NCBI RefSeq assembly: GCF_004010195.1
Contig: NC_057718.1
Span: 79,317,643 to 79,376,213 of the forward strand
Length of the DNA stretch: 58,571 bases
Direction of reading: 5' to 3'
Source of the DNA: Chiloscyllium plagiosum
Lineage: Eukaryota
Shown: positions 2,401 through 58,571 of the stretch, piece by piece
How the letters are laid out: the number at the start of each line of letters is the position of its first letter
How positions within the stretch are numbered: position 1 is the first letter of the stretch
Made by a program: the position numbers and the translations under genes
Notes under the pieces: generated by a model
The model's database searches: none
Told to the model about the DNA's origin: nothing
The model's input: only the letters and a program-made list of their open reading frames with translations

Positions 2401-2598
2401 GGAGGACTACAGATGCTGAAAAGTCAGAGTTGAAGAAGTGTGGAGCTGGAAAAAGCACAGCAGGGCAAGCAGCAGAGGTGCAAAGAATCGATATTTCGAT
2501 TCATGACCTTTCATAACTCCTGATGAATGGTCCTGACCGGAAACATCAACAGTCTTGCTCCTCTGATGCTGCTTGACCCTGCTGTGCTCTTTCCAGCT
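2401..2598. mobile_element. Penelope-like terminal repeat, fold-back copy with decayed hammerhead motif
   Basis: Inverted arms agctggaaaaagcacagcagg.../...cctgctgtgctctttccagct; CTGATGA at 2520-2526, GGTC/GACC stem, GAAACATC. Confidence 0.7.
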
Positions 2599-2899
2599 AA
2601 TTGGATGAAGATGGAAGCAGCGGTATGTACTTAACTGACTGCTTCTATTTTTCAACCACAAAACAATCAAGAAAAATATTGGCCTCTTTATACATATTTA
2701 AATAAATAAAAAAACTTTCAAAAACACTACATAATATAAAATTGTAAAGAAGTTGTATTATTTGAGAGAACAATTTGATTGGGAACATGTTAAATGTCCT
2801 TCATTGGCGAGGCCACAACAGGAATCTCTAAAAAAAAGTCACAAACTTACATGCAGATAGTTTATGAATAATACAAGATTGAAGTCTTCATAGAAATTG

Positions 2900-4150
2900 A
2901 TCATAGAAACAACACTAGTGATGGATCAGTGAAGGAAACAATCATTTCCCTGCTTGCTTTAAAGTCCTGCAGATTCTTCCTTTACAGTTAAATATCTAAT
3001 TCCTTGTTGAATTCTTCAATTGAACTGCCTCCATCTTACCCAGGCAGTGCGTTCAAGATCCTAATCACTCACTGCATGAGAATTTCTCATGGTGTTGTTA
3101 CTTCCTTTGACTGACTGAGAACCAGGGTATAGATTTAACACTCCTTCCAACAACTTGGACAATTTCTTATTACGCTCATGATTTTGAATACATCAAAATC
3201 TTTTAAGGAAAAAGAAAAAAAAAGTGTACCAACTTCTCTACTCCATTTACAGCTTCCTTCTATTGTCCTGCATTGTATGCTGACCAGAATACAATTCAGC
3301 TTGTGAACAACCCAGGGACTGCCTGTAGTCTTATGCGCTGTAACACCTTCACATCCTTCCTACAGTATCATGTCCAGAACTGAAACCAAACCAGTGTTTT
3401 ATCCACATTTAATACAACCACATTGCTTTATGTGCTTAGTATCCTCTAGTAAAGCCTGGAATACTGCCTGCTGTATTCCCCAGAGGGCAGTAGAGGCCCA
3501 CTCTCTGGATTCATTTAAGAAAGAGTTGGATAGAGCTCTCAAAAGATAGTGGAATCAAGGGTTATGGTGATAAGGCAGGAACAGGATACTGATTAGGAAT
3601 GATCAGCCATGATTATATTGAATGGCAGTGCAGGCTTGAAGGGCTGAATGGCCTACTCCTGCACCTATTGAGAAAGAAGTTAATACAAAACAGCCCTACT
3701 GCCTTACATGACTTTTGCACATATATAAATCGGGTCTCCTTGCACCTGCAACCACTTTAAAATTATAACTTTTCAATTACAATAGTCTCTGCATTCTTCT
3801 CACTAGACTGAATCATTTCACACTCTTTTGCATTAAAAATTTCACCTGTCATTTGACTACCCATTCTAGAACCTGTCTAGGTCCTTTTGAAGTTTTACAC
3901 CATCCTTGCAGTTCCAATACTTCCAAGTTTTGAAGTTTTGAAATGGTGTCCCATTTACCAAGGTGATTGGATACCTTGGGGTGAAGAGGAGGTATAAACA
4001 TGAATCCCTGCAGAGCTCTACCATAAAACTTTTCCAGTCTAATAAATCTCCATTAACCACTTTCCTGTCACTCAACCAATTTTTGTATCCAGGTTGTCAA
4101 TCTTTTATAAAAAAGTTCTAGCTTTTCTCATCTATTGTGCAGCAAAATGC
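2900..4150 (-). mobile_element. Old, decayed CR1 LINE fragments
   Basis: Degenerate reverse-strand CR1 ORF2/3' motifs, interrupted by a younger + strand tail. Confidence 0.45.
3475..3670 (+). mobile_element. CR1 LINE 3' end fragment
   Basis: cagagggcagtagagg...gggctgaatggcctactcctgcacct CR1 ORF2 end and 3'UTR. Confidence 0.75.
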
Positions 4151-4492
4151 TTTTCTTGATGTTCCGTCGGGGAGAATTCCTCAGATGAATGAAAGCAGAA
4201 GCAGACCATTTGACACCTCAAGCCTCCTCTGCAGTTTGTTAAAATTACTGATGGTGATGGCTCAGTATTGTTTGTGTTACATGTTAATTATTTAGCCTTA
4301 AATATGGAAGGCATGATTAGAAAGGTTGCAGAATACACAAAAGACAGGTAGTTGATACTGTAAAAGGATGGCTGTAAATGAAGGATGGTATTAGTCATTT
4401 GGTTGAGTGGGTAAAAAAAAGTGCACATTTATTTGGGAAAAGGTAAATAAAACAAAGGAATACAGAATAATGGAGGGTAATGTTAGTATCCA

Positions 4493-4800
4493 GGGCAGCG
4501 CAGTGGCAAGAACTGCCGCCTCACAGCGCCAGAGACCCAGGTTCAATTCCCGCCTCAGGCGACTGACTGTGTGGAGTTTGCACATTCTCCCAGTGTCTGC
4601 GTGGGTTTCCTCTGGGTGCTCCAGTTTCCTCCCACAGTCCAAACTGTGCAGGTTAGGTAAACTGGCCAAGCTAAATTGCCCGTAGTGTTAGGTGAAGGGG
4701 TAAATGTAGGGGAATGGGTCTGGGTGGGTTGCGCTTCGACACGTCGGTGTGGACATATTGGGCCGAAGGGCCTGTTTCCACACTAACTAATCTAATATCA
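4493..4800 (+). mobile_element. HE1-like tRNA-derived SINE (V-SINE)
   Basis: tRNA-like head with B box ggttcaattcc, V-domain gtgggtttcctc...tttcctcccaca, CR1-type tail; tatcca duplicated at 4487-4492 and 4801-4806. Confidence 0.9.
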
Positions 4801-6113
4801 TATCCAAGGTATGTTTTTTTTAAAAATCTATGTCCACAGTTCCTGAACATAACAGAGCAAATAGATAAGGAGATAAAAAAGGAGGAATGTGGAATGATTT
4901 ACTTCATTGAGCAAGTATTAAAATACTAAAAAAAAGATAAGTGGAACTGTACAGGACATTAGTTAGGCTACACCTGTGGTTTTACATACACTGATATCCG
5001 ATGCTAAAAACAGAGGAGATTTAGAAGAATGTTACCAGGCTTTGAAAATTTGTAACTATGGAAGTAAGATTGGAAATGCCAAATGCTGGGAAGTGTAATT
5101 AGAAGGGGCAGTTCATTTATTCAGGTGGCACAGGCACAATGAACTGAATGGCCTCGGTGTTTAATTTGTGGTTTTATAATCCATTTGTGTTACAAAGCAC
5201 ATTCTTATCTTTATCTGGTTTGGTTTGATTTTCTCTTGTCTAGTATGATTATCCCTACTGTGAAAATATTAAATTACGTTGTTCCACTGCCTGAGGGAAG
5301 CCTTCAAAATTCTTCTCATCGCTGCAGTGAAAAATGTGACCCCCAATTTTAAGACAGTGTCCCCTAGTTCTGGGCCATTTTCCTGTCCCCCTTGTTAACA
5401 GCATTTAGCACGTCACTTCAAAAAAAAAAAGTCACCCCTCATTCTAAACCCTACTTGGAAACAAAAACCCAGTTTAATCAGAACTATCCTGATATGATAC
5501 CTGTACACTAAGTTTATGTGTAAAGGCCTAGAATACCTAAATTTGTCTGCAACTCAATGCCTGTTTCTCTCTTACAGAAGTCCAGTTTTCATTCTTTAAG
5601 AAGTCACATTCATTACAATTCATGCCATTAAAGAAAAATCAAGTGTTAATTGTAATAAAAACAAATGCAAAAATAATTTGATTGCACTAATAGCTAAAGC
5701 AGCAAAAAGAATTAATTTAAAAATCAGAGAGGATATTTGGCAAGCGAAAAATTTGGTCTTCTGTTGCTCACTCCACCTATCTCCATGCTGGCATGTAGCC
5801 CAGGCCATGCTATTCTTTGAGCAGAGCAGCACTCGAGCTGCTTCTCCTCAGCCATGACACAGTCAATGGGAACCTTACTTCTGGGTCAGAGGACATAGGC
5901 CAGATTTTCACTCGAGCTAGATAACCTGAAATTGGGAAATTCTCTGGTTTGATACACATGCCTCTGGGGGAAAAAAAGCCCATTTTATACTCCTTATCTG
6001 CTCTTTGTGAAGATTTCAGAGTCTCTCTCCCAGGCCCTTGCTGCAGCGAAAACGGGATCTGTGAAACCAGTCGAATTCAAGTGGCTCGGCTGACTGTGCT
6101 TTTCATAATACAT

Positions 6114-6320
6114 AGTCAGAAGTTACATGACACCAGATTATAGTCCAATAGGTTTATTTGAAATCACAAACTTTCAGGGTGCTGCTCCTTCATCACTTCA
6201 CCAAACGAGGGAGCAGAATGCCAAAATCTCGTGATTTCAAATAAACCTGTTGGACTATAATCTGGTGTTGTGTAACTTCTGACTTTGTCCACCCCAGTTG
6301 AACACTGGCACCTTCATATC
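6114..6320. mobile_element. Penelope-like terminal repeat (GGAGC/GCTCC family), fold-back copy
   Basis: Inverted arms agtcagaagttaca...tgtaacttctgact (6114-6284); same family as 26847-27090; decayed hammerhead cores at the centre. Confidence 0.75.
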
Positions 6321-6419
6321 CATACCTCACAAGCAAACATAAAAGTCTGTTTCCCACTTCAACAGATTTTAAGACCCATCCCATGATCTTTAAAAAGAAT
6401 CCTAGATTATTCCACAACT

Positions 6420-6791: not shown

Positions 6792-6793
6792 TA

Positions 6794-7147
6794 ACCAACA
6801 CAATAAAATTTTTGAATTACTTTCTTGAGGTCTGACCCTTTCCACTGCACAGTTTAAAAATCACTATCCACAAATTGCACCCATTCACTTGAATCTAAAA
6901 ACTTTGCATCTGGTATAAGTCAGTATATTTGAAATAGCCTTGCACCTCATTCTGGCAAGCGTTATGCGAGTGAACAGCCTGCTTGCCAGAATGAGGTGCA
7001 AGGCTACTTCAAATATATTGACTTATACCAGATGAAAAGTTTTTAGATTCAAGTGAATGGGTGCAATTTGTAGATAGTGATTTTTAAACTGTGCAGTGGA
7101 AAGGGTCAGATCTCAAGAAACTAATTCAAAAATTTTATTGCGTTGGT
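6794..7147. repeat. Long inverted repeat: 167-bp arms, 20-bp spacer
   Basis: 6794-6960 is the reverse complement of 6981-7147 with 7 mismatches and no indels by manual alignment. Confidence 0.95.
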
Positions 7148-18770: not shown

Positions 18771-20125
18771 AAAAGGAAACATAATAGGGATGCTGGAAGA
18801 AAACTCAACAGGTTTGATAGCATCTATGGGGAGAGAAACAAAAGGACACGGAGTCTGATATGACTCTTCAGAAACTGACAGCTAGAAAATGATGTTTTTA
18901 TGCTGTTGACAAGAGGAAGGGATGGTGAGGATGAACAGGGTAAAAGACAAATGGAGTGCCAATGGTAGTAAAGGAATAATTTAGGTACAAAATAGGTGTA
19001 AATTTAAGTGGAAATAGCAGAAACAATGTTGGTTTTGACGAGAGTAAACCCATGCAGACAAGCCCTGGGGCAGGGTGAGGTGGAAGAGGCCAATCAATCT
19101 GAAGGTCACTTCCTCATAGCCTGCTTCCTGTAAGAACTCCATTCACTCAGTTTCTCCATCTCATCTGTTTCAAATGATGCCACTTTTTAAAACAATTCTA
19201 CATATTTGTCCTTTATCCTCAAAAAAAAACAAGGATCATAGCACTATCACGCCTGGCTCATGTTCACACCACAGTCTCATCCCTTCCACTCTCCCAAAGA
19301 TCCCACTGTCCTCACTTTCTAGCAACCTCTGCATTCAAATAATCACCCTTCACTATTTCCTCTACCTCCTGCAGGAGGTGGTCTCCAAACATATTTCCCC
19401 CTCTCCTATCAGCATTCTGCAGGAGCTACACCCTATGTGACACCCTGGTCCATTCTTCTGTCACTCCTAACATTTCTTCAGCCAAAAAACTGCTCCACAT
19501 CCCCATGCAATTGCAGAGTTTTCTATTTTACTTTCTCATTATCCAAGAGACAAACATAGCTTCCCTTTGGAACTGTAGTTATTTATAGTTCTTGCAATCT
19601 CCTCTGTTTTATTTGCTGCTTACAATGTGGTCTCCTATACATTGAGAAGACTGGATGACCACTCTGCTGAACACCTCTGCTCTGTATGAGAATTACCCTG
19701 ATTTTCTAGCTTCTTGCCATTTCAGTACACTACCTTGCTCTTGTTGCAGTCCTTGGCCTGCTACAGTGAAGCCAAACACAGCTAAAGGAAGGGAACCTCA
19801 TTTTCCAACTTTACAACCTTCAATACACAGATACTGTCTTACATTTTGGTTACACCCCTTCATTCCATCCACCCATCAGTACTTTGCTTGCATGTGATTG
19901 CAATCAGCAAAGCCAACCTATTTTCTATTCACTCCTCTAGTTACATTACCCCTCCCTTTATCTTTTGCTCTGGGCACCCTCTATCTGTTTCACTCATTTC
20001 TCTTTCTCCATAGTCATCAACAAGAACTATTTTCCTATTACCTTCAGTTCTAGAGAAGTTATATAAGACTTAAAAGGCTAACAGATGCGGACAGGCTTAA
20101 TAAATTCTTTTTCCAGCACTTTCAG
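18771..20125 (+). mobile_element. Penelope-like retroelement remnant with inverted 5' terminal repeat
   Basis: Frameshifted PASCKNSI / QFLHL / NDATF near 19120-19190; ICCLQCGLLYIEKT (decayed GIY-YIG motif) at 19611-19652; inverted repeat piece 18771-18875 and direct piece 20040-20125. Confidence 0.7.
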
Positions 20126-23375: not shown

Positions 23376-23383
23376 CTAATACT

Positions 23384-23478
23384 AAATAAAAGCCAAAAGA
23401 ACTGCGGATTCTGTAAATCAGAAACAAAAACAGAGGTTGCTGGAAAAGCTCAGCAGGTCTGGTAGCATCTGTGAAGGA
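23384..23478 (-). mobile_element. Penelope-like terminal repeat fragment
   Basis: aacaaaaacagaggttgctggaaaagctcagcaggtctggtagcatc, same family as 43041-43139. Confidence 0.7.
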
Positions 23479-25806: not shown

Positions 25807-26846
25807 TGCACCTTTCCAAAATCTGCCTCCCAACCTGCTCCTTCATGTCTCTGTTGGTATTGAGGATAGATAAAAAAACTCCTAATAAAATGACTACTCC
25901 TTTCCTGTTTCTAACTTCCACCCATAATGATTCAGTAGACAAACCCTCCTCGTCGACAGCTGTTATACTATCCCTGATTAACAATGCTATTCCCCCACTT
26001 CTTTTACCTCACTCCCTTTTCCTTTTGAAACATCTAAACCTGGAACATCCAACAACCCTTCCTGCCCCTGTGATATCCAAGTCTCTGTTAAGGCTACAAC
26101 ATCCTGGCTCCAAGTACTGATCTATTCCCTAAGTTCATCACCCTTGTTCCTGACACTTCAAGCATTAGAGTGTGCACACTTCAATCTATCACACTGATTG
26201 TCCCATCAACTGCCTATCCTTCCTCAAACTTTCTGCATGCTGTATCTGCCTGTTCACCAGCTACCCAATCCTCTGATCCATAGCTCCGGTTCCCATCTCA
26301 TTGGTGTGTGTAACCTTGCAAACTGACGTGTACATTTGCAAATATTACAATAGTTAACCACATTTCATTAATTGTTTGTAATTTGAATGTCCTGAAGTTG
26401 TGAAAGGCACAGTATAAATACATTGAATTACTTTCATGTTACAGCATATCCCTTGACTCACTGTAAATACTGCACTTGTGGGTCTTATTCATCAGCCACT
26501 ATTTGGCTGTGGCACCATCAGAGGTAGGATCAGTTGTTAATTTTCTGCTTTCTATTCCTAGAGCAATGAATCCAATTAAAGTGCTCAACTGCTTACACAA
26601 CTGAATTGAACTAAACTCAATATAGACCAATTATTAATATAGGACTTTTTAGGTACAGTGTTAAAGTCATTACTTCTGAGCCAGGAAGCTTGGGTTGGAA
26701 TTCCACCTGAACCAAATTGTTTCATAATGTATCCAAGCAGGTTGATTAAAAATATTTAACCCAATTATTGAACCTGGGGCCTTCCTGGTCTGTAGAGCTT
26801 AACTGTTCACTGTACTATTGACAGGACACAGGCTTGGACTTTGATG

Positions 26847-27090
26847 ATTTGGAGATGCCGGTGTTGGACTGGGGTGTACAAAGTTAAAAATCACACAACA
26901 CCAGGTTATAGTCCAACAGGTTTAATTGGAAGCAAACTAGCTTTCGGAGCGCCACTCCTTTATCAGGTGATAAGGAGGACACATTGTGGTGTCCTCCACT
27001 ATCGCCTGATGAAGGAGCGGCTCTCCGAAAGCTAGTGTGCTTCCAAATAAACCTGTTGGACTATCACCTGGTGTTGTGTGATTTTGAACT
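26847..27090. mobile_element. Penelope-like terminal repeat, fold-back copy with a hammerhead motif in each arm
   Basis: About 100-bp inverted arms (26880-26982 / 26989-27092); TSD-like ttggactttgatg / ttggattttgatg. Confidence 0.85.
27003..27037 (+). ncRNA. Minimal type-I hammerhead ribozyme motif
   Basis: cgc-CTGATGA-A-GGAG(cggct)CTCC-GAA-AGCT-A-gtg; 3-bp stem I, CUA cleavage triplet. Confidence 0.65.
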
Positions 27091-27299
27091 TTGGATTTTG
27101 ATGCCTCAGAGATGGATGATAGGTGATGGACCGGGCCATCCCACAATACAATCCCACATATGGGTGTGATTTTAAAGATCCAACAAGTTCCTCAGCTTAC
27201 GAATGACTATTTTATTTTTTCTTACATTGCATTTCAACTTGCATACAAATCAATTTATAAACAGACTCTAGAAAGGTATCTGTTTGCAACCCAGGGACT

Positions 27300-27890: not shown

Positions 27891-29739
27891 GCACTTGAAG
27901 AGACTCCTATATCTTAGCTCTTTTAGTATAACCATTCAAATCATTTCTTTGAAGTCCATATAAGCTCAATAAGTAATTTCCAAGTATATATTCCAATTTA
28001 ACCTCTCTCAGCATTCCAAATCATAACAATTCACTGCATTATCATGCTTCCTGAATTCCCTTCTCGTTTATTTTGCATTACCTTAAATAAATCACTTAAA
28101 AGATATGTGAAAATACAAAACAACTGCACATTTTGAAATCTTTTTAATGTAGGACTAACCTGCATATGTTCACCAGGCCCCTACTGTGAAAATTATTCAG
28201 TAGTTGGGAAACCTCAATATTAAGACGTAAGCTCTGAAATCTTTGATGCATCTTTTAACCACTATGCATAACCTTATAGCCAGACAAATTTCTGCTTATT
28301 TTGTCAATAACCTTGAATCTGTGTCTTATAGTTACAGATTCACCTGCTACTGAAAACAATTTCTCTTTATTTACCCTATAAAATCCTGCATAACATCCAG
28401 AAAGTTTATACAGGCACCTTTTTAATAGGTAAATAAACAAAGTAGCATAAATTGTAACTATAGCCAATTAAATAAACTCCAAATATTTGTAAATACTTTC
28501 AACTTTGCATTGTTAGTTGTTGATATGAAAGCTCAATACACAGTTTCCTCTATTTCATTTTGGTATCATTACTATGGTATTGTTTATTGCTCTCAGCTTT
28601 CCTTTGCTCTTACAATCTGTAAGCTTTTAAAACCGAAGCTATATGCTGTGAACCATTATGTTTATCATTTATTCAATCTTATCTCCTACTTTTTTTTGAC
28701 TCCTCACAGCATGCTGTACTTACTGTTCTCAAAATATGTGTCACTGCAAGTCATCTTATCAACTTTGCATTACTAAATTTTAGAACCTGTCATGCAACTC
28801 TATTGGACTTTGTTAAAGTGAAACTCTTGTACCTTTACAGCTATTGTACAGGAATGTCTAGCAAGTTTTTTAAAGTTGTGTCTGTCACAGCTTGCTTAAC
28901 TGTTCTATTCAATTAATCGTTATCAGACCCTAGCTCTGCTCTTTATTTCCAGGCAAAGTAACCCTGAAACCTGTAAACATAAGCTATGTAATTACGGGTT
29001 GATTTGTACAATTCCAGTTTTGGATATAAAATTCAACGGCAATATTACACAAAGTCCCATGAGCTGGCCAAAAATGTACATTTAGCCTTATGAGTGGGGA
29101 GGGAACAATGTCAACAAAAAGTTTGTAACAATTCTAGACCTGTCTATTCCTAAAGACTGTAGATGTTGGATCAAATGGATCTCGCAAAACTAAATTTTTC
29201 ACTTGGTAAATATATCAAGGCTTACAGATTGAATAAATGAGGTTTCACAAGTATGATCTAACTAAATGCTTAAAAGGGGCCAAGGGCTAAGTGACATGAA
29301 CTTTCTCATAAATAATGGCCAACCAAACATTCACGAGTTGCCCAGCAATTGGAATAAACAGAAAGAAATGTAAGCACGTCACAGAAGCTCACACAAGAAC
29401 ATTTTTAGGATCATTGAGAAAAAAGTAAGGTAAATAGAAGTTTAAGGTGTCTAATTGGAGTCTACACTTTCTGAGTTTTGTTTAATGATCAGAACATGAT
29501 TTTGTTCACACCTGAAATGAAAACAGAAATTGCTTGAGAAACTCAGCAAGTCTGTGGAGAGAATGCAGAGTTAGTATTTCAAGTCCAGTCACACACACAC
29601 AGACAAATTTTCAAAATAGGCCCTTTTGTAAGCTTCAAGTAAATCAGTTTCAATAGTATAGCATTCTCTTTGGAAATCAGACAACTTTTTTATTTTATGG
29701 TGAAAATTAGTTTTGAACTCCTTGCAATTTCACAGAGGT

Positions 29740-38100: not shown

Positions 38101-39950
38101 CTGTTAGCTTCTCTGGATCATCTAGCTGCATCAGTGATACAGTTGAAGTGACAGTCCAGAATAACTGGTCTGGATATTACTGGCAGCAGTGGTCTGAACG
38201 ATGGCTAGACGTTCACTCTTTACCTCCAGGGCACATGCATTAATTAGTCACAGTGGAGCATTTCTGTACATAACATCTGCAACGAGGATGTGCTCATCCA
38301 CTTCCTCCTTAACCTCTGAGATGATAAAGTTGCCTCCTCACAGCAGAATACCTAGGCTGGAGGATCGGCAATCATTACTCAAATCCAAGGCCTGTGGGCC
38401 TGTAAGCTCAACCATTTCCTGTAGCTGCTGAGGTGTAGTACCTCACACTCCTGCAGAAAAAGGACATCCGGTTTGACTTTGGCCAAAGTGAAAACATTGC
38501 AAAGTGGCTTTTATGCTACACACGTTTAGGCTGGCAATGTTCAAACCATTGTTAAGATATTTTTAGATCACCATATTGTCCAATAAAGATTTAAGACTGA
38601 TCCAATTGCTGGCCGAGCTCCTGCATCCCAGTGGTATATGTAAACTTTTGTACTTTCACAGGGCTGAGGTAGCTGTCCTATTCCTCTTGCGGGTGTTATC
38701 CTGACCACGTGTCATTGGGGCAGAGACGAAGCCAGGAAGGTCAGATTTCATGTTGTGCTCCTAATTGTGCAGAGTTGTTGTTGTGCTCAGCTCCTGGTTT
38801 CCTGGAGCTGTGCTGTGCTTGGTACCTTTATGTTCCTGACATCAGGAAATGGGGATTTGCATGGCCTCTCACGTTTCCAGGTCAGGGGTGCTCATCTCCT
38901 TCCCCATCTTGGTGCTTTGCCCCTTCTGTTTATGGCAAACCTCCCGTAAGTCTTCATTGGAAAAGCAATCACTGGCGTGTTCTTCATACAACTTGCTCTT
39001 TCCATTCTGTTGGCCTGTGGTAGCCCTGTGAGATTGAAGGATTTTCCATTTGTGGTTTTTCCTCACCAGCTGCCACATACTCCCCTGTCACTGTCTCCTC
39101 TTCCATTGGTTTTCAGTTGGTTTATGACTTTCTGGAATATCTTCCTTTCTTTTCCTGCAAGTCTTGCCTTCCTTCTGACGCCGAGAAAGTGAAGACTGCA
39201 GATGCTGGAGATCAGAGATGAGAGTATGGTGCTGGAAGAACACAACAGGTCACGCAGCATCCGAGGAGCAGGAGAGTTGATGTTTCAGGCATAAGCCCTT
39301 CATTCCTGATGAAGGGCTTATGTCCGAAACATCGATTCTCTTGCTCCTCCTATGCTACCTGACCTACTGTGCTTTTCCAGCACTACACTCCCAACTTCCT
39401 TCTGACTATCCCTTTTCTCAGTTGTCTTATTGGAGGGTGGCATCCTGCTGTTCTTTTGGGTTCCACTGCTTGTGTTGCCACTTCTGGCCAATTACACATA
39501 TGGGTTTCTCCACCACTCATGTCTTGCTCAGGCCTTTGCAGGCCTGTTTTCCAACAAAGGTTGCACTTGGACTCTTTGCAGTCCTTAGTCAGGTGCCCCT
39601 CCTTATACCAGTTTCTATAGAGTCACTTTGCAGTCTGCTGCCATGTGCCCTGACCTCCTACAGGTTCAGCACACTCTCTATGTTGCCCCAGCATCAGGGA
39701 GCCTCACCTCCCTTCAATCACAAAACAGGAGGATGTTTCCACTGGCATCCACCTTCAGGGTCACTTTAACCTGCCACTTGCTGGTCCAGATTCGAAAGGG
39801 GTCCACTGCATTGGTGCTGCCTCCTTCAAGCTGTACATACCTTCCCAGGAAGGTCAAGACATCTGTTATCAGGACGTGGCATTTGTACATATGGATTGTA
39901 ACATCTTGGCTTCACTGCGCTGGGAGGACAAACAACGGTGCCGCATAACA
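35105..39950 (-). mobile_element. Tx1/L1-clade non-LTR retrotransposon, decayed
   Basis: ORF 36373-36891 with SLDQEKAFDRISH and VKASLDMDD (decayed YMDD); aataaagtata on the minus strand near 35110; endonuclease and ORF1 debris to about 39950. Confidence 0.75.
39180..39394. mobile_element. Penelope-like fold-back insertion with hammerhead motif
   Basis: 12-bp TSD cttccttctgac (39168-39179, 39395-39406); CTGATGA-A-GGGC-TTAT-GTCC-GAAACATC at 39306-39333. Confidence 0.85.
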
Positions 39951-40567: not shown

Positions 40568-40737
40568 ATTTTGTTTATCTATGGTGGCGATTTTCCTAAC
40601 GGTACTAGAAAATCTTTTTGATGATTTTGTTTATCCATGGTAGCGATTTTCCTAATGGTACTAGAAAATCTTTTTGATGATTTTGTTTATCCATGGTGGC
40701 GATTTTCCTAACGGTACTAGAAAATCTTTTTGATGAT
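40568..40737. repeat. Tandem repeat, 3 x 56 bp
   Basis: Units start at 40568, 40624 and 40680, with only a few substitutions. Confidence 0.95.
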
Positions 40738-41756: not shown

Positions 41757-42645
41757 ATGGACAATGGGCTGAAAAATGGCAGACAGAGTTCAATCTGGAT
41801 AAATACGAGTTGTTGCATTTTAGTCCAACAAATAGGGACAGGACTTGTACAATCAATGATAGGGCTGTGAATAATGTTATAGAACAGAGGGACCTAGGGG
41901 TTCAGGTACATCACATATAGATAGGGTAGTTGAAAAGGTTTTTAGCATGCTTACCCTCAAGATGTTTGAGTATAGGAGTTAGGAAGTCATGTTGAGGTTG
42001 TACAGATAATTGGTGAGTCCTCTTCTGGAGTACTGTGTCCAGTTCTGGTTAGTCAATTATCAGAAGGATATTATTAAACTGGAGAGGATTCAGAAGAGAT
42101 TTACCTGGGTGCTGCTGGATTTGGAAGGTTTGACTTATAAAGAAAGACTGGGACTTTTTTCACTGGAGAATAGGAGGCTGAGAGGTGACCTTATGTAAGT
42201 TTATAAAATAATAAGGTGTATAGGTAGGGTTAATAGTAGGTGTCATTTCCCTCGAATGGAGGATTTCAAGACTAGGGGCCACTTGTTAAGGTGAGAGGAG
42301 AGAGATTTAAAAAGACATGAGGGGCAATTTCTTTAGGTAAAAACAATGACTGCAGATGCTGGAAACCAGATTCTGGATTAGTGGTGCTGGAAGAGCACAG
42401 CAGTTCAGGCAATTTTTACACAGAGGGTGTTCACGTATGGAATGAACTTCCTAAGGAAGTGGTGGATGTGGGCCCAGTTACAACATTAGATAAGTGCATG
42501 AATATGAAAGATTTGGAGGGGTATGGGCCAGGAGTGAGCAGGTAGGACTAGTTTAATTTGAGATTATGTTTGGCATGGACTGGTTTATGTTCATAGTGGA
42601 CTGGTTGGACTGACGGATCTTTTTCTGTGCTGTATTGACTCTATG
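41757..42645 (+). mobile_element. CR1 LINE 3' portion
   Basis: ORF 42010-42198 LEYCVQFW...LERIQKRFT...RRLRGDL; 3' tail. Confidence 0.88.
42333..42411 (-). mobile_element. Young Penelope-like terminal fragment nested in CR1
   Basis: One mismatch versus 58438-58516; ggcaattt duplicated at 42323-42330 and 42408-42415. Confidence 0.8.
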
Positions 42646-43040
42646 GTGGGTACTTTAATAGCAATACATTGACGTGTTGTTTCAGATTGCAATATTTTGT
42701 ATATTTGAGAAGATGTATATTTGCAGAAGGTGACACTTTGCAATATTGAAAATGGAAGAAATTTTAATACATTCAATTGCCTAAAAGTTCAGACATCTGT
42801 AGCAGTTCTAAATCCTAATTATTAATTATTTGAAATAAAGAAAATATCCAGAAATTAAGAGAAATAAAAAGTCTGAACTCACATTTATTTAGTGCCATTC
42901 TCAATCTGAGGAAATTCCACAGTGTTACCCTTCATCTAGCACTCTGGAAACTGCTGTAATATAGGAAACCTGGCAACCAGATTGCACGTAACAAAATTGC
43001 ACAAACAGCATTAAGATAATAATTAAGTGTCTGTTTTAGT

Positions 43041-43139
43041 AACAAAAACAGAAGTTGCTGGAAAAGCTCAGCAGATCTGGCAGCATCAGTGAAGACAAGT
43101 CAAAGTGATTGTTTCAGGTGCAGTGACCCTTCCTCAGAT
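43041..43139 (-). mobile_element. Penelope-like terminal repeat insertion ending at a hammerhead core
   Basis: 11-bp TSD tctgttttagt (43030-43040, 43140-43150); minus strand CTGAGGA-A-GGGT(cactgc)ACCT-GAAAC. Confidence 0.8.
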
Positions 43140-43829
43140 TCTGTTTTAGTGATATCAATTAACAGATAAATGTTGGTCAGATCATCAGAGAAAACCATCT
43201 GCTCTTTGGGTAGTGAGTTATGATCTTTTACATCCATCTGAGAGTTAGGGTTTTCTCTTTGTATAACTTACATTAAAACACAGCATTGCCACTTGAGACT
43301 GATCACTTTCTGAATAATTAAGTATGCTTGATTTTGTTATCAGGGATTAGGTCATCCTCATCACCCAATGGAATCACTGACAGACAGTCTTTGAAATCTT
43401 GGTTTTGTTTGAGAAGGAGATGTATCAACAGAAAAACTTTTGTTCCAGAGACGCTAATTCACTACATATCTTAACGAATGTTCTGCGCTCTGTCAGAGCT
43501 ACCAGGCGTCTGGTAATATTTTATAATAAAATTGACTCAAAAGTTTATTTCCTCAACTGGTGCATAACTTCAAATTTCTTTATTCAGCATTGCTTCTCTA
43601 ACTTATCATTGTGAATCTCAGCACTAGGCAACACACTGAAAATATTAAGAAAATCAGTAATGGAGCATCAGCTGGCACTGTTGGTTATGTTTGTAGTTGA
43701 TATGGCTGAGTTGCCAGGACAATTGGCTAGACCAAAGCTGATGTTGATTAATAAAGCAAGCAAATGTTATGAACTAATTTTCATTCATAACAGAGCAGAC
43801 TTAGTAATAACTCAATTGGACTATCATGA

Positions 43830-43920
43830 TAAATAAAGAACTGCAAATACTGATGATCAGAAATGAAAACAGAAATTGCTGGCAAAACTCAGCAGATCCG
43901 GCAGCATCTGTGAGGAGAAA
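43830..43920 (-). mobile_element. Penelope-like terminal fragment
   Basis: aaaacagaaattgctggcaaaactcagcagatccggcagcatctg. Confidence 0.65.
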
Positions 43921-44294
43921 TTCAGTACCGTAAGAAAAAGGAGTGAATATTGAAGCCAGTGAACAGAGTGCAAATCATGTGGATTTTTATTTCCAAATTA
44001 TGTTGAACTTCTTGAATTCTTTTGAAGCTGCACTTATCTAAGTGAGTTGTTAGCATTCCATCTCACTGTGATTTGTGCCGTATAGGTGGCGAAATGCTTT
44101 AGGATGTAGAAAGTCAATCACTCATTGCACAGATTGCATGAATGACTCTTCTAGTTAAATTTCTGGTTATTGCTCATAGGCAATTCATTAATGGGAATTG
44201 TAAGAACATTTAAGAAATGATCATATATGGTCAAACAATCCCAGCTTTCATTTTTGCTTAGAGAATCACATCTGTGAATTACAAATTTTAGAAT

Positions 44295-44471
44295 AAAGTT
44301 AAACATCACACAACACCAGGTTATAGCCTAGCAGGCTTATTTGGAAGTGCTGCTCCTAGCTATCTGACAAAGGAGCAGCCCTCCAAAAGTTAGTGCTTCC
44401 AAATAAGCCTGCTGGACTATTGTGTGATTTTTAATCTTGGCCATCCCAGTCCAACATTGGCATCTCCTCAT
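44295..44471. mobile_element. Penelope-like fold-back insertion (GGAGC family)
   Basis: 13-bp TSD caaattttagaat (44282-44294, 44472-44484); inverted arms; decayed core ctgacaaaggagcagccctccaaaag. Confidence 0.8.
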
Positions 44472-45580
44472 CAAATTTTAGAATGGCACAGTTCAATGAT
44501 TTTTTTTGAGTTGTCTGAAAATTTAGGATTGATATGGAAAGTCTATATTTTTCTTGACCAAACTAAACTCTGGTCCATAGCGATTTAATTAGCTTATTTC
44601 CCTACATACTGACAAGGTATAATTAATCCCTCAGTACTAATCACTGTGATGAATTAATTTATAATTCTTAAGGTTAATGTCTTATCATTGCACTTTATTA
44701 TATACTAACTGTCAAATTCAATAATTATAAAATTTATTTTGTGGATTTCACTTGTTTAAAAAAATCTATAAAAATCTATAATGTCCTAACATAAGAATAA
44801 TCTGAATTTAAACCAGCTTTTCTGATTTTAATGCTTGTTAAAGTACAAGCTATACTGTATCAAGTCAAACTATTAAAACAAAATCATGACTGAATTAAGC
44901 ACAAAACATTGTTATGTGTCTGAGTTCACAAGACAAAGCACAGATGAATATGTTTCATGAGCATGGAAAACTCTCCACTTAGAAGAGATGTGGACATTGT
45001 CAGATGAAAAATTAACTGAAGACCTGCCTAGGCTTTCACATGGACATAGAGAAATCTATGCCTTTAGTTTGAAGGACAGTAGGTGAGTCCTACCAGGCAG
45101 TATTTATTTATGGACAAAATCATTAAAACCATGTTACTTTTCAATTTATGTTTGCTAGTTACAGGAGCTTGCTGTGCCAAATTAGCTGCCATACTTCCTA
45201 CAGGACAACAATAATTACAATTCAAAAATATTCCACTGATTGTGTAAAGTGTTTTGGATCATCTTCAGGCCATGAAAGGTGCTACAAATCTCCTGTTTTT
45301 ATAACTCTGCATATCAAGGAACTGCAAAAGTAAAATTTAAAATTTCAAAAAGACTAAGCCCAATCAAAAATCTTGTATGTGTATGTGGTTGGTATTTTAC
45401 TTAAAATGAGATAATTCAAAATTAGTTACATTTTTAAAGCAATGTAACTGTTTGAGTTTGTCCCCAAAATAACTTAAAACTTGGTAAATCCATATAAAGA
45501 ATTCCACTAGTGTGATAGTGCATTGAAACTGAGTGCCCTAGATTGCATAATGGATTTGGGCTGAGGTCCTTAATGTGTTA

Positions 45581-45789
45581 AAAAACAAAAAACTGCTGGA
45601 AATCACAGCAAGTCAGGCAGCCTCTGTGGAGAGAGAGCAAGCTAATGTTTTGAGTCTTGATGACTCTTTATCAGAGCTCTGACTCGAAATGTTAGCCTGC
45701 TGTCTCTCACGGATGTTGCCTGACCCACTGTGATTTCTAGCATTTTTCATTTTCAATACAGATTCCAGCATCAGCATAATTTGCTCTTC
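45581..45789. mobile_element. Penelope-like fold-back insertion (GAGTC/GACTC family)
   Basis: 9-bp TSD aatgtgtta (45572-45580, 45790-45798); inverted arms; minus-strand ctgataaaGAGTCatcaaGACTC. Confidence 0.75.
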
Positions 45790-48514
45790 AATGTGTTACT
45801 TAATTTTTTATGAGCTATACACCAGGATATCCTATTAAAATAATTTCAAATTAAATTATCAATTTTTTACTGTTGAATGGCATCAGGCACAGATGAAACT
45901 CATGCAATATCATCTGCTTGCTATACTGGAAGTGAAGATTGCTTCTAAAGTTGTGTGGCATTGAGAAGCAAAGGAAGAAGATGGACCCAAGTCTGAGGTT
46001 GGACTTGAAATGCTTTCAATATGATGCTTGCTGAAAGTGTCAAGAAGGATTTTTTTTTAACAGGTGTGATTTTTTTGTGAGTCTGAGGGTGAACACAGGT
46101 CATTAGAGGAAATGTTCTTTTGCTACTTCACACTTCATTTGAGTAGATTTATGTGGCTGATAGTTAAAAATAACAAAAAAAAGTAGACCAGAAATAACTG
46201 CTGATCATAGTGAACTGATAGTTACAGCCCTCTTAAAAATCCCAGGAGGTTAAATTGCTTTCTACAAGTCATGCGAAGCAGGTTCATAATGAATTGGCAT
46301 TTGTTCAAGTTAACAGTTTAGAAGTTTGGCTTGGTGTAAAACAAGTTATAGACTTCAATTTTATCCTTTCTATCTATTCCTTTTGTAGAAATGTTTACTT
46401 AAATAAAAGAAATAGGTTAAGCATTAGTTCTCTAACACTGCTAAAATGAAACCACATTATTCTGAAGCTTTATCTCTTTCCCCAGTTATCCCAACAACTT
46501 AATATGCTTGTGAAATAATTTAGGGATTTTTCTTAATTTTACCTGGGATCATACTTTCTTCCCCCTTTTTGCTCTCCTAATTTCCCTTTTAAATTCCCCC
46601 CTGCATATTCAGTACTCTGCTAGGGTGTCTGCTGTCTTTGTTGGTCCCACCCTTTATCTTTATTGGACCATGTTGGTCCTGTACTCTCTCTATTTCCTTC
46701 TTTAATGAACCCCATTGGTCTGACCCAGATTTATCTAAAGGTATCTGCTCCCACTCCACTCTGACCAAATCATACCTGACCTTAATGAAATCAGCCAGCC
46801 AAAGTTTAGAGCTTTGATTTCAGGCTCATCCAAAATACCACCTGTCCATTGCTACGCAACCATTAAAGAAGCCTCTGTCCCTTGTCCGCATTTTAGAAAA
46901 TCAAAGCATAATGCTGTGCTCCTCCTTACAGGCAGAAATTGAAGCATACAGAAAGTACTGCAGAAAGCAAAAGAGCTTCTACGGAACTACTTAGAGTTGG
47001 TAGACTGGACATAATCAAGAACTCAGTGACCAACCTAAACAAGTATGCCACTACCGTTACGTTAGTACATAGATGACAAATGCTGAAGAAGTTAATCCAA
47101 ATGTTCCCCAACCAGAAACCATGGAAGAACTAGGAGATCCGCTCCCTACTGAAATCCATGTCTGAGGTATTCAAGTTGGGTGACCCTGACCTATACAGGA
47201 AATCCAGGTATCAGCTTTGCATCAGGGACATCAAGAGGTAATACCAAACTAAGTTTGAGGCCCAGACTAACCACATTGACCCCTGTCATTTGTGGCAAGA
47301 CTTACACCACATAACCGGATACAAAACAAAGTCAAACTGAATCTCAGGCAACAATATATCCCTACCCACTGAGCTCAATGCATTTTATGCTCCCTTTGAA
47401 CTGAAGGGCAGTGAATTGATGCCACCCGTCCCAACAGCCTTAGATGCACCTATATTCTCAGTCACTGTCACAGACATTAGAACTGCCTTCTTAAGGGTGA
47501 ATCCACAGAAAGTGACCAGGTTGAATAGAGTCCCCAACTGTGCACTCATATCCTGCTAGCAGGACCAACCAGCGGGAGTATTCACAGATATCTTCAACCT
47601 CTCCTTACTATGATTTGAAGGCCCCACCTGCTTCAAGATGACCTCCATCATCCCAGTGCAAAAGAAAAATCATGCAGCGTGCCTCAATGATTACCACCTA
47701 GTGGCTCTTACATCCATAAATTTGAAATATTTCAAATGGTTGGTCATAACTCACATCAACGCCGGCCTCCCAGATTGCCTTGATCCCTTGCAATTCACCT
47801 AATGACACAACAGGTTCACAGCAGATGCCATCTTCCTGGCCCTACACTCATCCCAAGACAACAAAAATACCTGCGTCAAACTCCTACTTATTAACTACAG
47901 CTCCACCTACAACACCATAATTCCAAACAAACCCATCTCCAAACTCCAGGATCTAGGTCTCGGATCCCCCTTCTATAACTGGATTCTTGACTTCCTGACC
48001 TACAGATAGAATAGGTAACAATACCTCCTCCACGATAATCTTCAACACTGGCACTCTGCAAATCTATGTACTCAGCCCCCTACTATTCTCCTTATACACA
48101 CAGAAAATTGTGTGGCCAAATTCTGCACCAACTCCATTTACAAGTTTGCTTATGAAGCACTGTTGTAGGTTGGCTCTCAAACAATGACGAAGCTGAGTAC
48201 AGAAGGGAGAGAGAGTGCTTAGTGGCATGTTGTAAAGACAACAATCTCTCCATCAATATCAGCAAAATGACGGAACTGGTAATTGACTTCAAGGAACAGA
48301 ATAGAGAGCATGCCCTTGTATGCAAGCTGGTGCTGAGGTGGAGATGGTTAACCGCGTCAGGTTACTGGGAGTGATGATCACCAACAATCTGTCTTGGTGC
48401 AGCTGTGTTGACACTACAGTCAAGAAAGCACAACAAGACCTCTAATTTCTCAGGAGGCTAAGGAAATTCGGCATGTCCATAAAGCGTCTTACAATTTTTT
48501 CTACATGCACCATA

Positions 48515-49131: not shown

Positions 49132-49164
<33 letters not shown>

Positions 49165-53363: not shown

Positions 53364-53456
53364 CTGACTTCACATGACAAAGGAGCAGTGCTCCAAAAGC
53401 TTGTGTTTTCAAATAAACCTGTTGGACTATAGCTTGGTGTCACGTGACTTCTGACC
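53364..53456 (+). mobile_element. Penelope-like terminal fragment (GGAGC family)
   Basis: tgacaaaGGAGCagtGCTCCaaaagct...aaataaacctgttggactata. Confidence 0.75.
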
Positions 53457-53479
53457 ATATCTGACAGAAGCCACAACCA

Positions 53480-53690: not shown

Positions 53691-53719
53691 GTATGATACC
53701 GACCTACATAAGGGAATAT

Positions 53720-54200: not shown

Positions 54201-55710
54201 CAAGTGAGATAATGTTTATGGGTTCTCCCATCAAATTGTTGGATGAGTGTTCAGTAACAGACCAATTGTTCACCATCTTATTGATAATATCTCATTTGTG
54301 TGGTAAGCTAAATCTTGATTTGCAGATCCAGTGATGGAGGGTTGAGTAAAAGCATTAGCCTTGCAGTGTGCTCACTTGTCCTGTAAAGATCTGGTTCAGT
54401 TCTGTTCTAATATCAAAATTGTTTAATGATTACTTCTCCTTTTGGAGCAGATTCTTCACATGTCATGTCAAATAGCTTTTCCAGAATGCAGTGCTATGGA
54501 AATGATTCAGTAGTGTTACTGCGCACTGTGACTTCTTGATTCTGAAGAGAATCTCATGCCTGACATCATTGTTTGCTCAAAGGGTGAGTGTTGTACCTTT
54601 GCTTTTGGAGACAATGAGAGACTTGAGAACTTCATGAAATGCCTCTTGAAGCTCTGCAGCCTTGTTCTCCCATCACTTGTTCTTCATTTCTCTTAGTTTG
54701 GCTTGGTTGATGGTATCTGGATTTTCTTGCTGATTTTCTTTTGTGCACGTTATCTAAAAGTTTGATTCTATCTTGGTCGTTCTTGTTAAACTAATTTTAG
54801 TGCTTCCGTTTAACAAATCCAAGGAACTATGCAGTACTATGAGAACCATCTCTTTTTCTAAGAGTCTTCAATGTCTGTTTCACCTCTGGCATATTAGCAA
54901 ATAATATGGCTATTTTGTGGCTGTTTCCCTTGTGATTTGAATCAAGTCTTATAGCACCACATTCTTTCTCTGCGTACAGAAATTTCTTCTGAATTCTTTA
55001 TTGGATTTATCAGTGAATATCTAATATTTATTGTCTTTAGTTTCATTCTTCCTCTTTTCAATGTATATTCCATCAAATTCATCCACAATAGTGAGACATC
55101 TGTTCATCCTTCTCTATTCCAGAGTAAAGAACTCCAGATAATTCAGTCTTCCTTGATAGTTAAAATCTTCAACATCATCAACAACAATTTGTACTTATAG
55201 AGTCATAGTGACATACAGCATGGAAACAAACCCTTCCGCAACCAGTCCATGTTGAACATAAGAATCTAGCACATTTAATTTGAACAAGCTAGACCATGGC
55301 AGATGGCATATAATGTGAAGCTATTTATTTTTTTGAAAAAGCAGAGAGGCAGAATTCTTGGTTTTCTTGGTTTCTTGGGTTGAACGTCAATGTGATATGG
55401 TCTACGTGCTTCTGTATATATTAGCCCATGTCACATTTACCATGAAGACTGCATTCACATTGGGACAGATGTCTTGAGGTTTATTAATAACACCAACTAT
55501 TTACATTGTTATGAAACATCACATTTAGAAATAGAAGTCTGAATCAGGTCTGAACAATATACACTGTAGAGAGAAGAATGGTAGAATCAAGTGAGGTATT
55601 CAGTGAGGCCCATCTCAACATTTCATTCAATTCACTTTTCTTAAATGCTGTGGCACAATTATGCTAGGCAGCGGTAAGTTCCCTTTGATACTCATCATTG
55701 CTTCTTAAGT

Positions 55711-55916
55711 TTAGATCAAGTGGTGCTGGAAAAGCACAGCAGGTCAGGCAGAATCTGAGGAGCAGGAAAATTGACATTTTGGGCAAAAGATGAAGGGCTT
55801 TTGCCCGAAATGTCGATTTTCCTGCTTCTCGGATGCTGCCTGACCTGCTGTGCTTTTCCAGCACCACTTTGATCTAAACTCTGGTTTCCAGCATCTGCAG
55901 TCCTTACTTTTGCCTA
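55711..55916. mobile_element. Penelope-like fold-back insertion (GGGC/GCCC family)
   Basis: TSD att(g/c)cttcttaagt (55697-55710, 55917-55930); gatgaaGGGCttttGCCCgaaatgtc just after the inversion point. Confidence 0.85.
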
Positions 55917-56049
55917 ATTCCTTCTTAAGTAGCTTATTAATGGCCTAACTCACCATGGGTTACAATCTTATCAAACTTGCCATACAAACTAGCCATTGGG
56001 AAAGTTCAACTTAGAAACGAGAATGGATTATTGGCGAATTCAACTTGCC

Positions 56050-57640: not shown

Positions 57641-57644
57641 CCAG

Positions 57645-58100
57645 TTCTCTCAGTTCAGGTTTTTTTTAGTTTGATCTGTTTTTAGCAGGAAGTCAAAAAG
57701 CTACTAGGGATGTGGAGAAGCAGCTACAGTGAAAAGAGGTTGCATGTTTCAACAGAGGTCTTGCTTGAGCTTTCTCTATGAAAACCCTGCCTGTAAGAAC
57801 CTGTGTTTGAATTTACCTTTTGCCAAGGGGTGTTTGCTAAGGGTTTATGGGATGTTGCAGGGATTGGAACAGCTTCATTAACTTACAATATCGTGATGGT
57901 TGGGTGATCAAGTAAGTTAATTTATTCTAAATTCTGTTTTCTTTTGTTTGTGTTTCATCCATCATGTTTGAGCTGAGTGGTTTGACCAGGTGCATCACTC
58001 TTGAAATATCCACTTTACATTAGCCTAAAAAAGAATAAAAAGTTAGCCTCCTGGGCTACCTTCTTGAAACATTTTTAGGGGGTCTGGCCTGATTCATAAA
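57645..58100. mobile_element. Possible decayed solo LTR
   Basis: Compositionally distinct block interrupting the Harbinger-like region and ending ggtctggcctgattcataa; no clear TG...CA pair or TSD seen. Confidence 0.3.
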
Positions 58101-58380
58101 GGTGGTGATCTCCAACCAGGCTGGCATGGAATGTGGCCTCCTCTGCTGGTCCTCCTAGAAGGGGACTCCTCTTCCCTTGACTACCCTATCCACAAGGACC
58201 TCCCAGGTCTCTCAAAGAAGTAAGTGTCAGGGTCCCAACCTCTGCCATATTTCCTCACCCCTTCCACAACTGAGCAGTACAGCTTCCTGCAGGTGCACAG
58301 AGGGTTGTGGTGTGACCACAAGGGATGATGGTCCGAGGGAGGACCTCTGCTGAGCGGTGGGTTGCTATAGTAATGACATA

Positions 58381-58437
58381 AAGTCATAGTCATAGAGTCA
58401 TGGAGATGTACAGTATGAACAGACCCTTCGGTCCAAC
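58381..58437 (-). mobile_element. CR1 3' tail fragment
   Basis: (agtcatag)n-like tail plus agacccttcggtccaac. Confidence 0.8.
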
Positions 58438-58571
58438 TTAGGTAAAAACAATGACTGCAGATGCTGGAAACCAAATTCTGGATTAGTGGTGCTGGAAGAG
58501 CACAGCAGTTCAGGCAGCATCCGAGGACAGGCAAAATCGACGTTTCGGGCAAAAGCCCTTCATCAGGAATA
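58438..58571 (-). mobile_element. Young Penelope-like terminal repeat (runs off window)
   Basis: Family match to 39180-39394 and 55711-55916; CpGs intact. Confidence 0.85.
58535..58570 (-). ncRNA. Minimal type-I hammerhead ribozyme motif, consensus core
   Basis: Minus strand auuc-CUGAUGA-A-GGGC-UUUU-GCCC-GAA-ACGU-C-gauu; GUC triplet at 58541-58539. Confidence 0.7.

What the first reader, a model, noticed from the sequence alone, without database searches (positions are those of the whole stretch)
2401..58571. Dispersed hammerhead-ribozyme-bearing Penelope terminal repeats with covarying stems across subfamilies
Seen: at least nine short insertions share the layout CTGANGA-A-[stem II]-GAA-[4-mer]-H, many of them decayed. 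Stem II changes sequence but keeps pairing: GGGC/GCCC (39306, 55790, 58560), GGAG(C)/(G)CTCC (6180, 27006, 44370, 53380), GGGT/ACCT (43130), GAGTC/GACTC (45660) and GGTC/GACC (2520). In the best copies the 4-mer is self-complementary (ACGT or AGCT). Known: Penelope-like elements carry minimal type-I hammerheads with a palindromic stem III that can cleave as dimers. Inference: several non-coding ribozyme-carrying subfamilies are spread densely through this locus. The class is known, but these shark variants (extra A after the core, AGCU/CUA site) may be uncharacterised.
Basis: partly seen in the sequence, partly recalled or inferred. Interest (0 to 1): 0.75.

Follow-up and report, generated by a model that had tools for sequence, protein, structure and literature searches.

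The report
Penelope retrotransposon ends with tiny hammerheads
The short repeats are mostly decayed end-pieces of Penelope-type jumping genes, each carrying a tiny hammerhead motif of an already described kind, and elsewhere in this genome copies of the small RNA U6 are joined to them exactly at the predicted self-cut, which likely records these ribozymes cutting their own RNA in living cells.

Summary
The motifs are real: 5 descriptor hits in the window against 0.12 by chance. I count 15 insertions of four families, 7 of them fold-backs. Only 2 of 11 audited ribozymes are intact. They are not non-coding families. They are 5'-truncated ends (pLTRs) of protein-coding Penelope-like elements; one near-full copy has pLTR, RT, GIY-YIG, pLTR. 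The locus is not enriched: about 1 per 4.8 kb genome-wide. Stems I and II covary across families. The 'extra A' and the AGCU palindrome are already in Cervera and de la Pena 2014. Beyond the known class: 8 of 10 U6-Penelope junctions seen lie exactly at the predicted cut and none in the zone where most copies begin, which likely records in vivo cleavage and ligation. Family A has a poly(A) signal 11 nt after the cut, used in RNA that spans the cut. This scan reported both points before, on other DNA of this genome; I retested them. Cleavage was not assayed. New members of a known kind.

The parts
2387..2597 (.). Fold-back insertion, old B-like family; ribozyme core at 2520-2547 (+), palindrome decayed (ACAT)
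   Evidence: weak 8-of-9 target duplication
6102..6320 (.). Fold-back insertion, family A; decayed ribozyme on minus strand 6168-6196 (C3 changed)
18790..18885 (-). Decayed C/E-like terminus with deleted core; seen by eye, not found by the BLAST census
   Evidence: no hit
23378..23476 (-). Family C end, part after the cut only
26834..27103 (.). Fold-back insertion, family A, with 12-of-13 target-site duplication (26834, 27091); tail on the left arm only; second core at 26938-26966 (-) has G8 changed
27003..27037 (+). Intact minimal type-I hammerhead, family A: stem I CGC/GTG, core from 27006, extra A, stem II GGAG/CTCC, AGCT palindrome, predicted cut 27034/27035
27046..27051 (+). AATAAA 11 bases after the predicted cut; the same place is AATAAA or ATTAAA in 53 of 55 family A copies and is followed by poly(A) in RNA reads of the family
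   Evidence: sequence
29514..29592 (-). Decayed family C end
39167..39406 (.). Fold-back insertion, family B2, 12-of-13 target-site duplication; core 39306-39333 (+) intact but palindrome decayed (ACAT)
42329..42411 (-). Family B end, tail part only
43038..43140 (-). Family C end; core from 43137, stem II GGGT/ACCT, palindrome and U16.1 lost
43832..43926 (-). Family C end, part after the cut only
44281..44484 (.). Fold-back insertion, family A, 13-base target-site duplication; core at 44364 has G8 and G12 changed
45570..45798 (.). Fold-back insertion, family E, 10-of-11 target-site duplication; ribozyme on minus strand 45644-45674, G8 and G12 changed
53370..53458 (+). Family A end, decayed core (C3, G8, G12 changed)
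55697..55930 (.). Fold-back insertion, family B, 13-of-14 target-site duplication; core truncated, begins at G5 (55789)
58418..58571 (-). Young family B1 end with tail; intact hammerhead 58537-58568 (stem II GGGC/GCCC, ACGT palindrome, predicted cut 58539/58538); an assembly gap follows the window's end

Best explanation
These repeats are 5'-truncated, often folded-back ends (pseudo-LTRs) of four protein-coding Penelope-like retrotransposon families, each end carrying a minimal type-I hammerhead motif that is predicted to cut only as a dimer or with protein help and likely cuts a minority of transcripts in vivo. Shown: the link to RT and GIY-YIG coding sequence, the covarying stems, the target-site duplications, decay of most window copies, U6 joined at the predicted cut, and poly(A) addition just after the cut in family A. 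Inferred: the element's protein starts reverse transcription inside the RNA, about 90 or 130 bases after the ribozyme's first base, and the copy usually stops near the ribozyme's 5' edge (likely the RNA's start, or a stall), giving 100-150-base stubs; a second, inverted copy made in the same event gives the fold-backs. Inferred: when two ACGU or AGCU palindromes pair, the ribozyme cuts and leaves a 5'-OH that an RtcB-type ligase can join to the cyclic-phosphate end of U6; such chimeras were then copied into DNA. The window copies themselves are most likely inert.
For: Near-full element L031: ribozyme at 1035, ORF with RVT_1 (E=6e-8) and a GIY-YIG-like end, ribozyme again at 4473. Endonuclease upstream of B (GIY-YIG, E=2.5e-5), C and E ribozymes. 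Stem I was not in the descriptor, yet 20 of 24 pairs are Watson-Crick across 8 subfamily majority strings against 7.75 when 3' strands are permuted, p=3e-4; stem II 29 of 32 (one search agrees). 21,292 exact family A cores, control 0; 98 of the 100 listed keep AGCT. 23 head-to-head and 0 tail-to-tail pairs among 137 arms in evenly spaced stretches, as described for these elements. U6: 6 of 6 matches and 1 of 1 join at position 1.1 although 31 offsets were allowed, controls 0; L191 is an eighth; all eight are true U6 ending in five T; 0 U6 joins in the zone where most copies begin. RtcB joins U6 cyclic phosphate to 5'-OH RNA (PMC6789731). 20 of 23 uncensored young B1 arms begin upstream of the cut, 13 within -18..+6 of C3. 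809 of 2,933 RNA reads end in oligo-A 12-15 bases after the hexamer, with no fall in depth across the cut.
Against: No cleavage assay. The single strands do not fold as hammerheads on their own. RNA reads show no pile-up of ends at the cut, as also reported for the anole element (PMC11167929). 2 of the 4 U6-Penelope chimeras in the unselected U6 list join inside the endonuclease region, not at the cut (L203, L207), and many U6 copies join the front of a SINE, so U6 joins are not special to ribozyme cuts. No U6 join was found for families C and E. The -18..+6 zone was chosen after seeing the data (p=0.024 and 0.012), starts are spread, and only 4 of 13 are preceded by G, so a single capped start is not shown. 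Covariation is between families, which are related; within families stems hardly vary except by CpG decay. The RNA evidence is one sample and cannot be assigned to a locus.
Confidence: 0.8

Rival explanations
1. The stubs are independent non-autonomous families (SINE-, MITE- or retrozyme-like) with their own fixed ends, mobilised in trans.
For: Most copies are 100-200 bases and non-coding; fold-backs look like MITEs and have target-site duplications. Non-autonomous retrozymes derived from Penelope elements exist, also in one cartilaginous fish (10.64898/2026.07.22.740005).
Against: 5' ends are ragged and grade into endonuclease and RT sequence in all four families; fold-back centres differ from copy to copy; no tandem array with a hammerhead in the window.
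Confidence: 0.08
2. The motifs are kept as a protein-binding or folding signal and do not cut in vivo; the U6 joins come from template switching at a structural stall or from another nuclease that cuts at the same bond.
For: In vitro activity of such motifs is low (PMC4209133); ribozyme mutants did not affect insertion by the anole element in vitro (PMC11167929); most copies and poly(A) reads span the cut.
Against: Eight joins in two unrelated families (A and B, six B sequence variants) fall on the exact bond; a T-run two bases further on, the natural microhomology for the U6 end, is not used; none falls where copies usually stop.
Confidence: 0.15
3. Chance matches to a loose consensus in repeat-rich DNA.
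For: 33 of the 38 CTGANGA sites in the window fail the descriptor; Rfam finds no hammerhead.
Against: 5 against 0.12 expected in the window, 30 against 0-2 in 531 kb; stem I covariation; position in pLTRs.
Confidence: 0.01

Closest known systems
Minimal hammerheads (min-HHR) in pLTRs of metazoan Penelope-like elements (Cervera and de la Pena 2014, PMC4209133; main text parts 1-2 of 4 and supplement file 2 parts 1-2 of 3 read)
   Same: CUGANGAH core with one extra base, G10.1-C11.1, palindromic 15.2-16.2, short stem I, several consensus families per genome, mostly single truncated copies, some close pairs on opposite strands.
   Different: No shark in the parts of its 56-motif alignment that I read; counts there are thousands per genome against 21,292 exact cores for one family here; stem II is shorter here (4-5 pairs in A, B, C, E); no in vivo evidence of cutting there.
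Neptune-type endonuclease-containing Penelope-like elements (Craig et al. 2021, PMC8557442; passages read)
   Same: RT then GIY-YIG; CX2-5CxxC linker in families A and B (CHGGRCKTC, CHRRNCKTC); partial tandems, inverted 5'-truncated copy, 30-40-base tail at one end.
   Different: Clade was assigned by the linker motif only, no tree; not compared with Repbase or Dfam, which are not on hand.
Poseidon element of the green anole (Frangieh et al. 2024, PMC11167929; parts 1-2 of 4 read)
   Same: Two internal 3' end points separated by a tail; ribozyme at the pLTR-ORF junction; extension from both DNA strands would fit the fold-backs.
   Different: There the ribozyme cut only with the protein and no RNA reads ended at the cut; here U6 chimeras mark the bond. 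In family A the ORF starts about 120 bases after the ribozyme's first base, not inside stem II.
U6/LINE-1 chimeric pseudogenes made by RtcB ligation (Moldovan et al. 2019, PMC6789731; passages read)
   Same: U6 ending in five U joined to a retroelement RNA and then copied into DNA.
   Different: LINE-1 junctions are variable; here 8 of 10 sit on one predicted ribozyme bond.
Animal non-LTR retrozymes (10.64898/2026.07.22.740005; parts 1-2 of 5 and passages read)
   Same: Type-I hammerheads related to Penelope pLTRs.
   Different: Defined as tandem arrays; the window copies are dispersed truncated ends.

Membership tests
min-HHR of metazoan PLEs | CUGANGA ... GAAA ... UH core | tested here: met
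   Family level; intact in 2 of 11 window arms
min-HHR of metazoan PLEs | Extra base between 9 and 10.1; G10.1-C11.1 pair | tested here: met
   Extra base in all 8 subfamilies (A, or T in family F); G10.1 in all, 11.1 is C or CpG-decayed T
min-HHR of metazoan PLEs | Palindromic 15.1-16.1 with no stable helix III | tested here: met
   AGCT in 36 of 36 A1 copies, palindrome in 88% of 41 B1 copies; 32-58% in older families, the rest mostly CpG transitions
min-HHR of metazoan PLEs | Short covarying helix I closing the motif (type I) | tested here: met
   20 of 24 Watson-Crick pairs, p=3e-4; 14 of 15 over five lineages, p=0.008
min-HHR of metazoan PLEs | Self-cleavage, dimer- or protein-dependent | not testable with these tools
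   Indirect only: U6 junctions
Endonuclease-containing Penelope-like elements | One ORF with RT and C-terminal GIY-YIG between two pLTRs | tested here: met
   L031, with stops and a frameshift; for B, C, E only the endonuclease end and, for B, the ORF start were seen
Endonuclease-containing Penelope-like elements | 5' truncation, inverted 5' copy, optional 30-40-base tail, target-site duplication | tested here: met
Neptune clade | CX2-5CxxC linker before GIY-YIG | tested here: met
   Families A and B; not readable for C and E
Neptune clade | RT phylogeny groups with Neptune | not tested
   No named reference RTs on hand
Canonical type-I hammerhead (Rfam hammerhead families) | Match to the Rfam model | tested here: not met
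   No hammerhead family among 8 matches at E<=1
Non-LTR retrozyme | Tandem units each with a hammerhead | tested here: not met
   None of the 7 tandem arrays in the window overlaps a motif
U6 chimeras made by RtcB | U6 3' end with five T joined without microhomology to an RNA 5' end | tested here: met
   8 loci; the ligase itself is inferred

The most novel reading that the evidence does not exclude
This genome holds a DNA record that Penelope minimal hammerheads cut in the germ line: U6 is ligated at the exact bond in two unrelated families and never where uncut copies begin. Together with a start zone at the ribozyme's 5' edge and a poly(A) site 29-32 bases after the cut (family A), the pLTR would work like a retroviral R region: start, ribozyme, poly(A) site. 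Short stubs would be strong-stop copies, longer ones products of a jump to the RNA's 3' end, and the ribozyme an occasional switch that removes cap and tail.
Probability: 0.4. Interest if true: 0.7.

Novelty: new member of a known kind. Interest (0 to 1): 0.42.

Why it matters
The class has been known since 2014, so the window itself is ordinary. The open question is whether these weak ribozymes cut in animals and what for; the 2014 paper had no in vivo evidence and the 2024 anole study found no RNA ends at the site. With roughly 740,000 end-pieces (extrapolated from 111 in 531 kb), this genome gives a natural record: U6 joins mark the cut bond, copy ends mark where reverse transcription starts and stops, and poly(A) reads mark one RNA end. 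That makes the Penelope replication cycle testable with end-specific RNA sequencing and simple cleavage assays.

Tried and rejected
Rfam scan: no hammerhead, only weak microRNA-hairpin matches. PDB search with the RT: 0 hits. Pfam gave nothing for the family A ORF start and endonuclease at E<=0.01. First alignment had wrong minus-strand coordinates and the first structure string was one column off for most rows; in the redone count the 4 family A rows of 24 remain one column out of register, so one search is the main test. No covariance model was built and R-scape is not on hand. Census: 146 of 283 arms were dropped because they began more than 52 bases after C3 or ended before +60, mostly matches to flanking repeats carried in my references; 3 more sample rows and 2 window rows (11201-11301, 57790-57884) were dropped by eye for the same reason. 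The 5'-end walk failed for 12 of 30 family A arms because of a 2-base indel subfamily, so A was not used. Six stretches fetched as possible full-length B1 elements were mostly assembly gaps. The 'one extra G at the first base' of earlier notes was not reproduced in B1 (4 of 13). U6 search for families C and E: 0. Run search: no RNA holder listed; run X20 gave 0 reads, no test; X1 is contigs and may be DNA. Lunse et al. on dimer cleavage (PMC5785218) is not held; I know it only through PMC6765202. Not in print, by my searches only: shark + Penelope + hammerhead ribozyme gave 1 paper where 'shark' describes the shape; U6/RtcB/hammerhead/retrotransposon listed no Penelope paper; Penelope-like + strong-stop gave 1 unrelated paper; Penelope + polyadenylation + pLTR gave none on this point in the 15 of 38 listed. 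Subscription journals, Repbase and Dfam were not searched. The host gene was not looked for.
Full report
Observation. The window has 38 CTGANGA sites. Five pass a hammerhead descriptor (2520+, 27006+, 39306+, 43137-, 58566-) against a mean of 0.12 in 60 dinucleotide shuffles; 56 evenly spaced 10-kb stretches of the genome (531,524 bases without N) give 30 against 0-2 in 8 shuffles. I count 15 insertions, 14 by BLAST census and one by eye. Of 11 ribozyme-bearing arms audited, only 27006+ and 58566- are intact; the others have lost the palindrome, a core base or the 5' part of the core. Four of the listed sites are on the minus strand. Rfam finds no hammerhead.

Anatomy. Seven insertions are fold-backs: an inverted arm meets a forward arm head to head near the ribozyme. 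Five of the seven have a 10-13-base target-site duplication, so each is one insertion event. In the evenly spaced sample, 137 arms remained after 146 of 283 were dropped as matches to flanking repeats; they form 23 head-to-head and 0 tail-to-tail pairs. After dropping 3 more rows this is 111 insertions, 1 per 4.8 kb, about 740,000 if extrapolated; the window's 14 are not in excess (P=0.34). Exact patterns give 21,292 family A cores, 31,281 family A post-cut stretches and 5,829 young B1 post-cut stretches, each with 0 for the reversed control.

Link to coding elements. Locus L031 holds a near-full family A element: ribozyme at 1035, an ORF broken by stops and a frameshift with RVT_1 (E=6e-8) and a GIY-YIG-like end, and the ribozyme again at 4473. 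Endonuclease sequence lies 576-690 bases upstream of A ribozymes in most linked loci, 230-300 upstream of B, and about 275 upstream of C and E; the B protein matches Pfam GIY-YIG. A and B carry the CX2-5CxxC linker that marks Neptune and Nematis elements (PMC8557442 passages). Inverted 5'-truncated copies, a tail at one end and 8-10-base duplications are described features. The stubs are therefore truncated pLTRs, not separate non-coding families.

Covariation. Stem II was part of my descriptor, so I tested it on copies picked by the sequence after the cut plus the two core anchors, and tested stem I, which no filter used. Across 8 subfamily majority strings stem I has 20 of 24 Watson-Crick pairs (7.75 when 3' strands are permuted, p=3e-4) and stem II 29 of 32 (15.75, p=3e-4); over five lineages 14 of 15 and 17 of 20, each at the lowest attainable p of 0.008. 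A count on 24 hand-picked copies agrees (83.9% of cells paired, 53 double changes against 17.6), with the four A rows out of register. Limits: the families are related, many copies came from searches that included the ribozyme, and within families there is little change apart from CpG decay. No single strand folds as a hammerhead alone; AGCU and ACGU self-duplexes are weakly stable and the decayed ACAU and AUGU are not, which fits a dimer model.

What is known. Cervera and de la Pena 2014 (PMC4209133) describe this motif, including the extra base after A9, the palindrome, many families per genome and close pairs on opposite strands. Their alignment has GCU-type palindromes (Schistosoma, Adineta, painted turtle) and A at position 17 (Xenopus, Schmidtea, shrimp). 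Activity in vitro was low and dimer-dependent; for the anole element it needed the protein, was not needed for insertion, and no RNA reads ended at the site (PMC11167929).

Do they cut? Earlier notes of this scan pointed to U6 fusions, and I retested this. Among the best 30 of 48 U6 hits, four join a Penelope sequence: two at position 1.1 of the ribozyme (L191, L208) and two inside the endonuclease region (L203, L207). A pattern allowing 31 offsets found 6 of 6 joins at 1.1 in family B (one being L208) and 1 of 1 in family A, the AGCU-A site. That makes 8 distinct loci at the bond of 10 junctions seen, all true U6 ending in five T; the patterns could not see joins far from the ribozyme. A pattern covering about -24..+5, where most copies begin, found none, and one for C and E found none. 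RtcB joins the U6 cyclic phosphate to 5'-OH RNA (PMC6789731 passages), the end a hammerhead leaves (established chemistry). The inference is in vivo cleavage followed by ligation. Many U6 copies also join the front of a SINE, so template switching at an RNA end is not excluded.

Most templates were uncut. Of 30 young B1 arms picked only by the sequence after the cut, 7 run into assembly gaps; of the other 23, 20 begin upstream of the cut, 13 within -18..+6 of C3, and 3 at the cut, two of these with 2-3 bases of microhomology. The zone is post hoc (p=0.024 and 0.012). Two loci (L043, L238) run from near C3 into the ORF start and then into a second pLTR that again begins near C3, as expected if the RNA starts there. 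A single start with an extra G, proposed in earlier notes, was not reproduced (4 of 13). In family A a hexamer 11 bases after the cut is ATTAAA in 36 and AATAAA in 17 of 55 copies. In one poly(A) single-cell run carrying the species label of the best DNA holders, 809 of 2,933 laid reads end in oligo-A 12-15 bases after it, on the sense strand; depth holds across the cut and falls from 1,369 to 433 across the poly(A) site. These reads come from many copies (87 are 99% alike or more) and may be host transcripts using the signal. I saw this before reading the two earlier notes that report it.

Verdict. The finding is real and belongs to a known class; the window copies are mostly dead, and the locus is average for this genome. 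The value lies in the genome-wide record, chiefly the U6 joins, which bears on an open question and which this scan had already noted on other DNA of the same genome. Interest 0.42; new members of a known kind.

Noticed in passing
window 6794-7147: Near-perfect inverted repeat, 167-base arms 96% complementary, 20-base centre; no match in the 62 other stretches searched, so not a common MITE; may be a local fold-back duplication.
   Followed up: partly
window 9899-10004: Long hairpin that draws weak Rfam microRNA matches below their cut-offs; no match in the other stretches searched.
   Followed up: partly
window 30717-31429 and 40568-40737: A 353-base tandem duplication at 99-100% identity and three 56-base tandem copies; the first could be an assembly duplication.
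   Followed up: no
window 7758-8246, 23862-24437, 36376-36894 (all minus strand): Reverse-transcriptase fragments (RVT_1) with no match to the Penelope proteins; probably LINE remnants (label from recall).
   Followed up: partly
L033, L060, L097, L138, L169, L176: A fifth group (F) of hammerhead-bearing ends, absent from the window, with a longer stem II, T as the extra base and stem I CCA/TGG; one lies 266 bases after an endonuclease fragment.
   Followed up: partly
L196, L197, L201, L206, L209-L213: Many U6 copies are followed directly by the front of one abundant SINE-like repeat (SINE label from recall): a U6-SINE chimera class.
   Followed up: no
L208 = L217; also L216, L219, L287: U6-Penelope chimeras that are themselves fold-backs; in L208 both arms carry the U6 end at the cut, so the join existed before the inverted copy was made.
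   Followed up: partly
L224:about 1500: A young B1 copy begins at the cut and is preceded by a short inverted piece of the sequence just 5' of the ribozyme core.
   Followed up: no
window 58571 and L281-L286: Young B1 copies often end in assembly gaps just upstream of the ribozyme, so long and fold-back copies are under-assembled.
   Followed up: partly
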